Shown here one piece after another: positions 171-2,776 of a stretch of DNA of 64,000 nt (its first letter is position 1; every line of letters starts with the position of its first letter). Location of the stretch: the IMG/VR virus record IMGVR_UViG_3300002054_000060, one strand, 5' to 3'. The stretch comes from a virus. The position numbers were made by a program, and so were the translations under genes. The notes under the pieces are model-generated. The model searched no databases. It was not told where the DNA came from and worked only from the letters and a program-made list of their open reading frames with translations.

Positions 171-266
171 CCACACAGATACTAAGTAATTGCACACTTA
201 CCGTGTCTGGCAGCGCACAATAACCATTCCACAGACCAGTGGATCACTCACACGGAGAACAGGTTA

Positions 267-419
267 ATGAACGCAGGAGCCAAGATTGCCGACATCAATG
301 CCCAGCGCCGCAGCGTCATGCGTGCGCTGGGTGCGACGCGCAAAGCTGTTGAGCCAGCGGGCCGTGGCAAGCGCAGCTACAAGCGGCGTGCCAAGCACGC
401 CCGTGGCCGGTGGGAGTAG
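267..419 (+). CDS. arfA: ArfA-like (alternative ribosome rescue factor) 50-aa basic protein; not in ORF track
   Basis: Hand translation MNAGAKIADINAQRRSVMRALGATRKAVEPAGRGKRSYKRRAKHARGRWE. C-half resembles the ArfA core VExxxxGKxSYxRxxKHxxRGxWE. GGAG SD upstream. Confidence 0.6.
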   Translation: MNAGAKIADINAQRRSVMRALGATRKAVEPAGRGKRSYKRRAKHARGRWE

Positions 420-422
420 AGC

Positions 423-998
423 ATGAGCGATATTGAAGAGATTGACCTGCATGAGACGTTCATCGACGACCACACAGCTAGCCTGGCTCGTGCAATAAGC
501 GAGCACCAGTTTGTGTCAGTCGCAGATGGCTTCAGGCGCATCAGGCAAGCCCATGCAGAGGGCCAGACGCTCTACCTGCGGCTAAGCCAAGATGGATTTG
601 GTAGTTGCGCCTCTGTGCCGAGTGTCAGGCCCCAATGGAAGGTGCTGCAAGAGTTCAGCGTGGATTCGGCGAAGTTGAAGTTCCCCGGCCAGTCCGTGAG
701 TGCGCTGCCCGCCAAGGATCGCAAAGTCAGGGCGAACTTTGATGTACACGACATTCTGGTGCCGATCGATGCGCTGACTCCGACCATTACGCGGGCCAAG
801 ATGCTCAAGGTGCGCCCAGATCATTTCACTTTCGAGCCATCTGATGTGGGCCAGGCTGAGCATAGAGCCATGATGGGCCGCGTGGATCAGGCCGCACTTG
901 ATGCGATGGAGCACATGGAAACCTATAGGCAACAGAGAGCACTCGATGAGCGAGTGCGTGCGTTCGAGGGCTACGAAAACGCGGGCACATTCGCGTGA
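423..998 (+). CDS. hypothetical protein
   Basis: 191-aa ORF starting 4 nt after the previous stop. Confidence 0.75.
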   Translation: MSDIEEIDLHETFIDDHTASLARAISEHQFVSVADGFRRIRQAHAEGQTLYLRLSQDGFGSCASVPSVRPQWKVLQEFSVDSAKLKFPGQSVSALPAKDRKVRANFDVHDILVPIDALTPTITRAKMLKVRPDHFTFEPSDVGQAEHRAMMGRVDQAALDAMEHMETYRQQRALDERVRAFEGYENAGTFA

Positions 999-1894
999 CC
1001 GCAGACCTGCGCTATCAAGCTCGCCAAAAGATAGATCACTTTGAGGGGTACGCGGCCAGAATCCTCCAAAAGGGCAGTCGTGAGCACGAGTGGTGGCGAG
1101 ACACCGTGTTCGTACTGGCGACAGAACTAATGGATGCAGAGGCGCTTGCTCGCATACTGGCATTGCCGAGCGACCAAGAACTCCAGGCTGATCAACATAC
1201 TTGGATTGTCGAGCTATCAGAGCGGCTGCTGGAGCAAGTCGCCTTGTTTTTGATTACTTATGGGTGTTTGCGCAAAGACCAGGGCGATGAACGCATGAGC
1301 CTTGATCTGCGTGAACTGCACAGCGACATGAGCCCCTCAGAGCTGCCGACCTGGTGGCACCAGTTGCGAGCCAGGCCAAAAGCCCTTGAAGGGCTCACCA
1401 AGACCAGCTTGGTTGATCACACAGGCAAGTTGAAGCGCAGATCCCTACTGTTACGCACCTGTGATTACGACATCGAGTACATGCTAGGCGCTCAAATAGA
1501 TGACGTAGACATCAGGCAGTGTGCCGAAACTCAGACAAGCGACAAACTCGGGTACCGGCGTGTTCATCTGCTGAACGCAACGCAGGTGAGCCACGCACAG
1601 CTTCTGCACGGTTACATGTTTGAACCTGCAGTGGCTTTGGTTAAGGCTTCGCTCTCTGAATCGTCGTGCGCAGCTTGGTGTAACTACATGGCAAACCTGA
1701 TTGTTGAGCTCATCACCGCGTTTTCAGAGTCGTCGCCTGATAGCGACATTTCTATCACCACTATGCACAGCAAGATACAAATAAGTAAGGGAAAGTCAAC
1801 TGTCAAAAGTGGCATCATGCGAACGCATCAGCCGCAAGACTTCTCGCACTATCTCGACGACGCTAAGAACCACTTAGCGGGGCAATATGCCTAG
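995..1894 (+). CDS. hypothetical protein
   Basis: 299-aa ORF; GTGA start/stop overlap with the upstream gene. Confidence 0.75.
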   Translation: MTADLRYQARQKIDHFEGYAARILQKGSREHEWWRDTVFVLATELMDAEALARILALPSDQELQADQHTWIVELSERLLEQVALFLITYGCLRKDQGDERMSLDLRELHSDMSPSELPTWWHQLRARPKALEGLTKTSLVDHTGKLKRRSLLLRTCDYDIEYMLGAQIDDVDIRQCAETQTSDKLGYRRVHLLNATQVSHAQLLHGYMFEPAVALVKASLSESSCAAWCNYMANLIVELITAFSESSPDSDISITTMHSKIQISKGKSTVKSGIMRTHQPQDFSHYLDDAKNHLAGQYA

Positions 1895-1924
1895 CAGCAC
1901 TCACCACAAAGCAGGAGGAAAACG

Positions 1925-2776
1925 ATGGGTAGTACCGCAGAGTCAGGCGACGATATGAAGGCTGTCTACATCAGGATGTCAGACATAGATCACAAAAAAC
2001 CCGATGGGTGGACAGAAGAGCGCCACCAGTCGGAAATTTCACGGCACGTCAAAGTCATTTGCTACGCAATGATCGAGGACGCAGAGGCGGGGAGAGACCC
2101 AATGGGTTTCAGCACCGTTTACGACATGGCACTTACCGGAAAATTGCACCCGGAGATCACTGAATCAGTTGTGCAAGCAATACTGAAAAACCAAGGAAAA
2201 GAAATGAGTGATTTACCGGCGAGTGTTCAAAACGATGTTTTGGCGGCACAGAAAGCAGGCAAAGGCGTGCTGAGAGTGGTCGAGCGCAGAGAGGGCGCTG
2301 ATCGCCGCGATGGCAACGAAGGCGTTATTACTAAAGATAAGTTGCTCGTTGAGATTGACCTGCTGCACAAAGATGTCTCAAAACATCACTCAGAGGTAAC
2401 TGAGACGCTCAACCATGTGACCGAACAACACGACTCCCAGTGGAACTTCATTAGCGTAGTGCAGGCTCAAACAGAAGCTACGCAACGCGGGGCGCTAAAG
2501 ATCGCAGAGGGAGTACGGCTGCATATCAACTCAGCCATGTGGACAGGCTTTGCTGCCGGCGCCGCGATGATGTTGGGTGTCGCGACCGCCTTCACAGCCG
2601 GGCCACAAATGTGGTGGCTGGGTGCCTTCCTTGGCTTGCTGGGGTGCGGCTACATGGCCTCGCACTTTGCGCAAGCAAGCATACTCAAGCACGAGCTTGA
2701 AACCGCCAAGGAATCTCTATTGCAAGTTCAGAAAATGACAGGCAATTCGAGCCCTGTTGAGCCTGATAGCGCGTAG
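1925..2776 (+). CDS. hypothetical membrane protein (coiled coil plus two TM segments)
   Basis: AGGAGG SD; hydrophobic AMWTGFAAGAAMMLGVATAF and WWLGAFLGLLGCGYMA segments. Confidence 0.75.
   Translation: MGSTAESGDDMKAVYIRMSDIDHKKPDGWTEERHQSEISRHVKVICYAMIEDAEAGRDPMGFSTVYDMALTGKLHPEITESVVQAILKNQGKEMSDLPASVQNDVLAAQKAGKGVLRVVERREGADRRDGNEGVITKDKLLVEIDLLHKDVSKHHSEVTETLNHVTEQHDSQWNFISVVQAQTEATQRGALKIAEGVRLHINSAMWTGFAAGAAMMLGVATAFTAGPQMWWLGAFLGLLGCGYMASHFAQASILKHELETAKESLLQVQKMTGNSSPVEPDSA

What the first reader, a model, noticed from the sequence alone, without database searches (positions are those of the whole stretch)
267..419. Unannotated 50-aa ArfA-like gene that ends where the active, truncated host form ends
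Seen: MNAGAKIADINAQRRSVMRALGATRKAVEPAGRGKRSYKRRAKHARGRWE*, below the ORF-track size cutoff, with an SD. Known (E. coli sequence recalled from memory, needs checking): the ArfA core reads [24 protein letters not shown], and V,E,G,K,S,Y,R,K,H,R,G,W,E line up. Host ArfA is made from a nonstop mRNA, is suppressed by tmRNA, and has a destabilising hydrophobic C-terminus. This copy has a true stop right after WE. Inference: a constitutive phage ribosome-rescue factor, possibly useful when host toxins or defences cleave mRNA.
Basis: partly seen in the sequence, partly recalled or inferred. Interest (0 to 1): 0.7.

Follow-up and report, generated by a model that had tools for sequence, protein, structure and literature searches.

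The report
Divergent phage ArfA-like ribosome-rescue peptide
A temperate 104-kb phage of an alga-associated gammaproteobacterium carries a real 50-residue gene that looks like a stripped-down, always-on copy of ArfA, the bacterial factor that frees ribosomes stuck on broken mRNAs; similar phage genes are already in the databases, and none, including this one, has been tested.

Summary
Window 267-419 (+) is an ATG-started 50-codon frame with a GGAG 9 nt upstream, a true TAG stop, phage-like codon usage, and a downstream gene starting 4 nt later.

Residues 24-50 are the only part that matches anything. In Pfam, the PDB and PHROGs the sole hits are ArfA or an ArfA-linked phage family, all below curated thresholds: Pfam 13 bits against a cut-off of 25.5, BLASTP to E. 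coli ArfA 14/27 identical, hhalign local probability 91%. The score is reached by 14 of 200,000 composition-matched shuffles. It is by far the best of 2,024 six-frame ORFs in the phage.

The N-terminal half cannot be aligned by sequence. A controlled complex prediction nevertheless places it on E. coli RF2 at the published ArfA contact sites and in register (ipSAE 0.68; best control 0.02).

There is no internal hairpin or terminator and no hydrophobic extension, so the non-stop regulation of arfA is absent.

My reading, at about 0.68: a divergent ArfA-like, RF2-recruiting rescue peptide made constitutively. This is not new in kind. At least ten GenBank phages carry stop-terminated ArfA mini-genes, two papers mention such genes, and this scan has flagged phage ArfA-like peptides many times before on other DNA. 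No function has been tested.

The parts
171..266 (+). 96-nt leader between the upstream gene's stop (168-170) and the ORF. No sigma-70-like promoter was scored. It holds only a loose look-alike (185-202) of the phage's recurrent 14-bp box.
254..257 (+). Shine-Dalgarno-like GGAG, 9 nt before the ATG.
   Evidence: read directly
267..419 (+). 50-codon gene (P0001) plus its TAG stop: the ArfA-like peptide.
267..335 (+). Residues 1-23, the N-terminal half. It cannot be aligned to ArfA by sequence. In the predicted complex V17, M18, A20 and L21 pack on RF2 V198, F217 and 219-221, next to switch-loop residues 319-322.
   Evidence: contact sites of ArfA from PMC5378476
336..353 (+). Residues 24-29 (TRKAVE), aligned to ArfA F25-E30. 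Predicted to extend the beta-sheet of RF2 domain 2 (residues 27-28 against RF2 214-215, residue 24 against 217).
354..416 (+). Residues 30-50, the basic tail PAGRGKRSYKRRAKHARGRWE. It carries G-K-x-S-Y, the KH motif and RG-x-WE, and aligns to the mRNA-channel tail of ArfA (31-52).
   Evidence: KH motif and tunnel residues from PMC8012679 and PMC5378476
417..419 (+). True TAG stop directly after WE. No terminator or exceptional hairpin spans it (fold z-score -1.1).
423..998 (+). Next gene (191 aa, no family hit). It starts 4 nt after the stop, so the peptide gene is the first cistron of a tightly packed operon.

Best explanation
P0001 is a highly diverged, phage-borne ArfA-type ribosome-rescue peptide.

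Inferred mechanism, by analogy with E. coli ArfA:
- The basic tail (residues ~30-50, with G-K-x-S-Y, KH and RG-x-WE) enters the 30S mRNA channel only when the channel is empty, that is, on ribosomes stalled at the 3' end of a cut or stop-less mRNA.
- Residues 24-28 add a strand to the beta-sheet of RF2 domain 2.
- N-terminal hydrophobic residues (V17, M18, L21) hold RF2 at V198, F217 and the W319 switch loop, so that RF2 hydrolyses the peptidyl-tRNA without a stop codon.

The phage gene has its own stop codon right after the tail, no internal hairpin or terminator, and no hydrophobic extension. The peptide should therefore be made whenever its operon is transcribed, outside tmRNA control. That would give the infected or lysogenic cell extra rescue capacity.

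Shown: the gene, the tail similarity, and the absence of the non-stop design. Predicted in silico: RF2 docking. Inferred: ribosome binding, rescue activity and the benefit to the phage.
For: 1. Exclusive hits. ArfA is the only Pfam hit (PF03889, E 0.073; profile 24-44 of 44 matches protein 25-45). All four PDB sequence hits are ArfA chains. The only PHROG hit is phrog_37108, which is also the top PHROG for E. coli ArfA and for the pf16 ArfA-like ORF, and which hits those of RXM and Arash, always through the same tail region.

2. My own HMM, built from 37 diverse bacterial ArfAs drawn from 401 genomes, gives 15.7 bits (p 4.5e-7). hhalign local gives probability 90.8%, P 1.2e-6. BLASTP gives 14/27 identities, E 2e-6.

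3. Empirical nulls. 0 of 20,000 full shuffles reach the score, and 14 of 200,000 half-wise shuffles do. It is the best of 2,024 six-frame ORFs, with the next at 6.0 bits. Five related ~105-116 kb phages gave no PF03889 match at E<=10.

4. Register. The match sits at the same distance from the N-terminus as in ArfA (residue n corresponds to ArfA n+1) and runs to the last residue. 'W-E(-A-S)' after the tail is conserved in both enterobacterial-type and Pseudomonas-type ArfAs.

5. Complex prediction with RF2_ECOLI: ipSAE 0.68 (three runs 0.67-0.68), best of three controls 0.02. That mark was reached by 51 of 78 solved complexes and 2 of 108 mismatched pairs. The runs share at least 79% of contacts and the partner's pLDDT is at least 63. 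The contacts (RF2 196-198, 212-221, 319-322 with peptide 13-31) coincide with the published ArfA-RF2 interface: ArfA 25-29 on RF2 213-217, and the hydrophobic patch on V198, F217 and W319 (PMC5378476). ArfA-RF2 complexes are solved, so this pass may come from the model's memory. It shows likeness to ArfA, not binding.

6. Precedent. Ten GenBank phages carry 36-51 aa ArfA ORFs with their own stop codons, scoring 27-70 bits on the same HMM.

7. The host is a gammaproteobacterium, the class in which ArfA/RF2 rescue operates (PMC8012679).
Against: - The Pfam score is half the gathering threshold.
- Adding the phage ArfAs to the profile lowers the score (12.7 bits), and a phage-only profile gives 5.8 bits. 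The match therefore rests on enterobacterial-type details in 27 residues and is not bridged by intermediates.
- The conserved N-terminal motif (I-K-D-N-A...A-L-L-x-D-P-L-F) is not recognisable. A18, L19, L24 and F25 have no clear counterparts.
- KGKGSY reads RGKRSY here.
- The peptide is a singleton with no relatives in about 15 billion proteins, so there is no conservation or covariation evidence.
- At about 1e-3 to 1e-2 expected false hits per 100-kb genome, a scan of some 250,000 windows will throw up chance cases of this strength.
- The complex prediction used E. coli RF2, not the host's. There was no ribosome, no positive control and no shuffled control.
- The language-model neighbour list is only a lead: an ArfA-bearing viral cluster ranks 8th among named clusters at 0.88, below the 0.9 bar.
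Confidence: 0.68

Rival explanations
1. Chance resemblance. P0001 is a small, very basic phage protein of some other function, such as a nucleic-acid binder or a regulator of the downstream operon. Its arginine/lysine-rich C-terminus happens to resemble the ArfA tail.
For: All library matches are below curated thresholds. Only 27 residues align. The score drops when phage ArfAs are added to the profile. There are no relatives to show conservation. The first-stage scan searched very many windows, so weak ArfA look-alikes are expected by chance. Fourteen of 200,000 composition-matched shuffles do reach the score.
Against: The hits are exclusive to ArfA in three independent libraries. The match is in register with ArfA from both ends of a protein of the right size. 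Specific non-basic landmarks are shared (V-E, S-Y, H, W-E). The RF2 docking prediction places the unaligned N-half on the published ArfA site, with controls at 0.00-0.02.
Confidence: 0.2
2. ArfA-derived ribosome and RF2 binder that does not rescue. The peptide keeps the channel-probing tail and the RF2 docking strand, but its altered N-terminal minidomain fails to open RF2 (as in the ArfA A18T mutant). It would then sequester RF2 or block vacant A sites, acting as a host-shutoff or regulatory factor.
For: The N-terminal minidomain that activates RF2 is the part that has diverged beyond recognition. ArfA A18T binds RF2 without triggering release (PMC5378476). An earlier scan note describes phage peptides that join an ArfA-type tail to a different front half (unchecked).
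Against: The predicted complex has confident N-terminal contacts with RF2 V198, F217, 219-221 and 319-322, the surfaces used in the active state. Clear phage ArfA homologues with conserved N-halves and their own stops exist, which suggests that phages select for rescue itself. A temperate phage gains little from poisoning translation termination.
Confidence: 0.09
3. Not a gene: an open frame in an untranslated leader upstream of the 191-aa gene.
For: The frame is short and has no homologues. No promoter was scored upstream. No RNA data are available.
Against: The codon-usage score is the best of six frames and typical of real genes; 0.85% of off-frame windows reach it. GGAG sits at the right spacing. 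The frame packs tightly against the next gene. It was called by gene finders on 6 contigs. Without it, a 250-nt non-coding gap would be unusual in this densely packed operon.
Confidence: 0.03

Closest known systems
E. coli ArfA (YhdL; Pfam PF03889; PDB 5U4I, 5MDV, 5H5U), the RF2-dependent alternative ribosome-rescue factor
   Same: It matches the active form in size (50 aa against 54-55). The basic C-terminal tail shares G-K-x-S-Y, KH and RG-x-WE, 14/27 identical and in register. The R-x-x-V-E mid-segment aligns to the strand that pairs with RF2 213-217. It is predicted to dock on the same RF2 surfaces. The host is a gammaproteobacterium.
   Different: The Pfam score is below threshold. The N-terminal minidomain motif (IKDNA...ALLxDPLF) is not recognisable. 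KGKGSY reads RGKRSY. The gene has a true stop codon, no RNase III or terminator hairpin and no hydrophobic C-terminal extension, so tmRNA-coupled regulation is absent. It is encoded by a phage operon.
Stop-terminated ArfA mini-genes of cultured phages: Pseudoalteromonas J2-1, Citromicrobium RXM g10, Brevundimonas Kikimora and Bajun, Pseudomonas pf16, Salmonella Arash gp99c, Roseobacter CRP-212, Erythrobacter XM05, Caulobacter Cr30, Ralstonia RsoM2USA. Pelagiphage HTVC027P gp30 belongs here according to PMC12753301.
   Same: They are phage-borne, 36-51 aa, and have an ordinary stop codon soon after the basic tail with no hydrophobic extension. XM05 ends ...KHKGRGE, much like ...KHARGRWE here. 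phrog_37108 is shared as a weak hit.
   Different: Those score 27-70 bits on a bacterial ArfA HMM and keep the N-x-x-A-x-x-L...[FY]-R-x-[RK]-V front half. P0001 scores 15.7 bits and scores worse against a phage-only profile. None of them belongs to the SSU5-like phage group. Five SSU5-like relatives have no ArfA-like ORF.
BrfA (B. subtilis) and ArfT (Francisella), other release-factor-dependent rescue peptides
   Same: They are small peptides with a basic tail that probes the empty mRNA channel and recruits a release factor. The KH motif is shared between ArfA and BrfA (PMC8012679) and is present here (K43-H44).
   Different: No sequence match to either was found in the Pfam, NCBIfam or PDB searches. 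The review describes their N-terminal interactions with RF2 as distinct from ArfA's, whereas P0001 is modelled in the ArfA mode.

Membership tests
ArfA (Pfam PF03889) | Score at or above the Pfam gathering threshold (25.5 bits) | tested here: not met
   13.0 bits, E 0.073, covering only profile positions 24-44. 11.7 bits in the six-frame genome search.
ArfA (Pfam PF03889) | Positively charged C-terminal tail with the K-G-K-G-S-Y core that occupies the mRNA tunnel (ArfA 31-48) | tested here: inconclusive
   R-G-K-R-S-Y keeps G, K, S and Y, but the second glycine is arginine. Ten of the 21 tail residues are K or R. Alignments. Tunnel binding itself is not testable here.
ArfA (Pfam PF03889) | KH motif contacting the mRNA entry channel (conserved in ArfA and BrfA) | tested here: met
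   K43-H44 align to ArfA K44-H45. The motif is described in PMC8012679.
ArfA (Pfam PF03889) | Tail long enough for activity (ArfA is active when truncated at N47 and inactive when cut after M40) | tested here: met
   The peptide extends to the equivalent of ArfA E52. Truncation data are from PMC5378476.
ArfA (Pfam PF03889) | Mid-region strand (ArfA 25-29) pairing with RF2 213-217 | tested here: inconclusive
   T24-V28 (TRKAV) align to FRQRV. The predicted complex pairs residues 27-28 with RF2 214-215 and residue 24 with 217. This is a prediction only and may reflect the model's memory of solved complexes.
ArfA (Pfam PF03889) | Conserved hydrophobic N-terminal minidomain (I11, A18, L19, L24, F25) that binds RF2 W319, V198 and F217 and activates it | tested here: inconclusive
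   It cannot be aligned by sequence (hhalign global probability 33%; MAFFT needs two indels). The complex model instead puts V17, M18, A20 and L21 on V198, F217 and 219-221, with 319-322 in the interface.
ArfA (Pfam PF03889) | Non-stop expression design: a hairpin (RNase III site or terminator) inside the ORF and an unstable hydrophobic C-terminal extension, giving repression by tmRNA | tested here: not met
   TAG follows directly after WE. No terminator-like site lies at 330-480, and the fold z-score is -1.1. The next gene starts 4 nt later.
ArfA (Pfam PF03889) | RF2-dependent peptidyl-tRNA hydrolysis on non-stop ribosomes; synthetic lethality rescue with ssrA | not testable with these tools
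   This needs a biochemical release assay or genetic complementation.
ArfA (Pfam PF03889) | Occurrence in beta- or gammaproteobacterial systems | tested here: met
   The prophage is integrated beside cmk-rpsA-ihfB-lapB-pyrF. The best named relatives of the host's S1 protein are Gammaproteobacteria MAGs (85%) and Granulosicoccaceae (81%).
Phage stop-terminated ArfA mini-proteins (phrog_37108 and neighbours) | Significant match to the phage family profile or to a profile of the phage members | tested here: not met
   phrog_37108 gives E 0.038, 15.2 bits. My profile of ten phage ArfA ORFs gives 5.8 bits.
Phage stop-terminated ArfA mini-proteins (phrog_37108 and neighbours) | 36-51 aa phage ORF with an ordinary stop codon shortly after the basic tail | tested here: met
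   50 aa, with the stop directly after the tail. Comparison set.

The most novel reading that the evidence does not exclude
A temperate phage deploys a deregulated, tmRNA-independent ArfA mimic as a counter-defence. By recruiting host RF2 to every ribosome stranded on cut mRNA, it would keep translation running when abortive-infection nucleases or toxins shred mRNAs or tRNAs. Its front half would have been re-invented, so that it is convergent in RF2 activation and not simply inherited from ArfA.
Probability: 0.15. Interest if true: 0.7.

Novelty: new member of a known kind. Interest (0 to 1): 0.4.

Why it matters
If active, this peptide shows how far an ArfA-type factor can diverge and still recruit RF2: half the molecule is unrecognisable. 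It would also add the SSU5-like temperate phages to the growing list of phages that bring their own ribosome-rescue factor stripped of tmRNA control.

As a class, phage ArfAs are untested. A 50-residue synthetic peptide makes a cheap entry point for asking whether phages use ribosome rescue to sustain translation during mRNA decay or nuclease-based defence.

Taken alone, this copy is a weakly supported, singleton member of a kind already visible in public annotation.

Tried and rejected
- **Relatives of the peptide.** None were found by the word-indexed search of 5.8 billion proteins or by exhaustive phmmer over 1.8 billion representatives. The latter returned only the peptide itself and P0002, a repetitive junk ORF. 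tblastn against 50,697 phage records found nothing, nor did the pattern scan of IMG/VR. The neighbouring 191-aa gene also has no IMG/VR relatives.
- **ArfA in related phages.** Five SSU5-like relatives (RHph_N1_10, SSU5, nickie, JGB6, ANB28) gave no PF03889 or P0001 match at E<=10.
- **RXM as a relative.** Citromicrobium phage RXM (104 kb, annotated ArfA) shows no portal similarity.
- **Profile bridging through phage ArfAs.** The score fell.
- **NCBIfam.** No hit.
- **Context.** The flanking genes have no family assignment apart from an RNase T-like exonuclease and DUF2958. The phage has no tRNA or tmRNA and no RF-1 or SmpB domain.
- **Host's own arfA and prfB.** These could not be examined. 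The host scaffolds are not held as searchable genomes, and the closest genomes in a 401-genome sample share only about 70% S1 identity.
- **Expression.** No RNA holder is listed. Only DNA runs of one 'algae metagenome' study hold the sequence.
- **ESM Atlas neighbours.** All are below the 0.9 bar, so they are leads only.
- **Failed or wasted calls.** The first related-loci run with a five-sequence alignment failed for lack of a conserved stretch. The genome-contig scan and one protein search returned only enterobacterial ArfAs. Diversity came instead from the genome search.

Full report
**The sequence.** ATG 267 is the first start codon of its frame. GGAG at 254-257 lies 9 nt upstream. The next gene (423-998) starts 4 nt after the stop.

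A codon-usage log-odds trained on the phage's 30 longest ORFs gives +11.7 for this frame. That is the best of six frames and sits at the 23rd percentile of real 50-codon gene windows. Only 0.85% of off-frame windows reach it. Gene finders called the ORF on six metagenome contigs. I take it as a real gene, the first cistron of a tightly packed plus-strand operon.

**The replicon and host.** The window is bases 23,608-87,607 of a 103,961-bp IMG/VR record. The record is phage throughout. Within the window it encodes terminase, portal and major head proteins. Outside the window it encodes CobT, Pol III alpha fused to UDG, RecA and DnaB each with an intein, SbcCD-like proteins and primase.

The portal is 42-50% identical to those of the SSU5, nickie and RHEph10 group of ~105-120-kb phages. 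In one assembly the phage sits behind an integrase next to host cmk-rpsA-ihfB-lapB-pyrF. In another it is a 107-kb circularly permuted contig. It is therefore temperate.

The best named relatives of the host's S1 protein are Gammaproteobacteria MAGs (85%) and Granulosicoccaceae (81%). The only runs that hold the DNA are labelled algae metagenome.

**What the peptide resembles.**
- Pfam gives a single hit, ArfA PF03889, at E 0.073 and 13 bits against a cut-off of 25.5. Profile positions 24-44 of 44 match residues 25-45.
- The PDB sequence search gives four hits, all ArfA chains (E 0.3-0.6). The alignment extends past the Pfam model through RG-x-WE.
- PHROGs gives a single hit, phrog_37108 (E 0.038). 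The same family is the top PHROG hit for E. coli ArfA and for the pf16 ArfA-like ORF, and it also hits those of RXM and Arash, always through the tail.
- NCBIfam gives nothing.
BLASTP gives 14/27 identities with one gap, E 2e-6 for that single comparison.

**How much more than chance.** I collected 37 diverse ArfA ORFs from a PF03889 search of 401 Pseudomonadota genomes; 37 genomes scored above the cut-off.

These show that W-E-A-S after the basic tail is conserved in both enterobacterial-type and Pseudomonas-type ArfAs. The terminal WE of the phage peptide is therefore a family landmark and not an E. coli peculiarity.

An HMM of these sequences scores P0001 at 15.7 bits (p 4.5e-7), aligning residues 25-49. 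No full shuffle out of 20,000 reaches that score. Of 200,000 shuffles that keep the composition of each half, 14 reach it, giving p of about 7e-5.

Among all 2,024 six-frame ORFs of the phage it is the top hit (14.9 bits as a stop-to-stop frame; next best 6.0). hhalign local gives 90.8% probability over residues 24-50, but the global alignment gives only 33%. The whole-genome six-frame search with the Pfam model gives E 0.024. Five related phages gave nothing at E<=10.

Two cautions apply. A scan of a quarter of a million windows will meet chance hits of this strength. And adding ten phage ArfAs to the profile lowers the score to 12.7 bits, while a phage-only profile gives 5.8 bits.

What lifts the case above a bare score is the register. 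The protein has the size of active ArfA. The match begins at the same distance from the N-terminus (residue n corresponds to ArfA n+1). It runs to the very last residue.

**The unaligned half.** ArfA's N-terminal minidomain (I11, A18, L19, L24, F25) activates RF2 (PMC5378476). It has no recognisable counterpart in P0001 by sequence.

I used the single complex-prediction job on RF2_ECOLI plus P0001. The ipSAE was 0.68 (runs 0.67, 0.68, 0.68) and the best of three controls was 0.02. That mark was reached by 51 of 78 solved complexes and 2 of 108 mismatched pairs. The runs agree in at least 79% of contacts and the partner's pLDDT is at least 63.

The interface comprises RF2 122-141, 196-227 and 319-322 with peptide residues 1-31. 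The tightest pairs are RF2 V198, F217 and 219-221 with V17, M18, A20 and L21, and RF2 214-215 with residues 27-28.

Demo et al. report that ArfA 25-29 pairs with RF2 213-217, and that the ArfA hydrophobic patch binds W319, V198 and F217. The model therefore reproduces the ArfA mode in register with the sequence alignment. ArfA-RF2 structures are solved, so this pass may come from memory. It shows that the model treats the whole peptide as ArfA-like, not that it binds.

**What is different from arfA.** Bacterial arfA is expressed from a non-stop mRNA created by a hairpin inside the ORF. It is repressed by tmRNA and encodes an unstable hydrophobic extension. The active product lacks the last 17-18 residues (PMC8012679).

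Here a TAG follows WE directly. No terminator-like site or exceptional structure spans the 3' end (z -1.1), and the next cistron follows at once. The peptide ends at the equivalent of ArfA E52, beyond the minimal active truncation at N47. If it is a rescue factor, it is made constitutively with its operon.

**Is this new?** No, not in kind. tblastn with E. coli ArfA and with the RXM protein finds ArfA ORFs in phages of Pseudoalteromonas, Citromicrobium, Brevundimonas, Pseudomonas, Salmonella, Roseobacter, Erythrobacter, Caulobacter and Ralstonia. These are 36-51 aa, each has its own stop codon soon after the tail, and they score 27-70 bits on my HMM.

Three are annotated as ArfA. Others are unannotated or misnamed; Arash gp99c, for example, is labelled 'ribosomal protein L2'.

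PMC8953757 names RXM g10 as ArfA. PMC12753301 reports that pelagiphage HTVC027P gp30 carries the PF03889 domain and is highly expressed early and late in infection. I found no functional study in the library searched.

This scan's own notes list 123 earlier ArfA-and-phage findings in at least 104 genomes. Those notes are unchecked.

| Reading | Confidence |
|---|---|
| Divergent, stop-terminated, phage-borne ArfA-like RF2 recruiter | 0.68 |
| Chance resemblance | 0.20 |
| Non-rescuing ArfA-derived binder | 0.09 |
| Not a gene | 0.03 |

Formal membership of PF03889 is not met. The claim is 'works like ArfA, probably derived from it'. I class it as a new member of a known kind, of moderate interest.

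Noticed in passing
L135:7841-12124 and L136 (flanks of G000, outside the window): The phage is integrated behind a tyrosine integrase next to host cmk-rpsA-ihfB-lapB-pyrF in a 386-kb scaffold. In another assembly it occurs as a 107-kb circularly permuted contig. This SSU5-like phage is therefore temperate and integrating, not a plasmid-prophage.
   Followed up: partly
L132:10324-12654 and L134:12582-15344 (G000 outside the window): RecA and the DnaB-like helicase each carry an intein (with LAGLIDADG domains). The Pol III alpha gene (L132:4293-7763) is fused to a uracil-DNA-glycosylase domain.
   Followed up: no
L008:317-541, L009:395-538, L141:~188-352, L142:~209-400, L138:~236-370: Clear ArfA mini-ORFs in GenBank phages are misnamed or missed. 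Arash gp99c is labelled 'ribosomal protein L2'. pf16 and RsoM2USA have only an opposite-strand gene annotated there. The Cr30 ORF lies in an unannotated gap. The CRP-212 ORF lies within the range of annotated gp38.
   Followed up: partly
L122-L131 (bacterial arfA loci from the genome search): Pseudomonas-type arfA ORFs end ...NWEAS(S/Y)(L/F)LAA, so the ORF itself encodes an ssrA-tag-like LAA C-terminus. The W-E-A-S element is shared with enterobacterial ArfA.
   Followed up: no
window 185-202: The phage's recurrent 14-bp box TAGTAAGCACTCAC has 30 hits in the window against 3.7 expected. It is absent from the leader of this gene. Only a loose look-alike, AAGTAATTGCACACTTAC, is present, so this operon may be controlled differently from the box-headed cassettes.
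   Followed up: partly
P0002 (hit of the exhaustive protein search): The only non-self hit is a 162-aa protein made of about 54-aa tandem repeats (...SRSYLWRHKHARGK...). It is probably a spurious translation of repetitive DNA. It shares RSY..KHARG with the peptide.
   Followed up: no
window 423-2776: The three genes downstream of the peptide gene (191, 299 and 283 aa) have no Pfam or PHROG family and no IMG/VR relatives by pattern scan. Like the peptide, they are orphans.
   Followed up: partly
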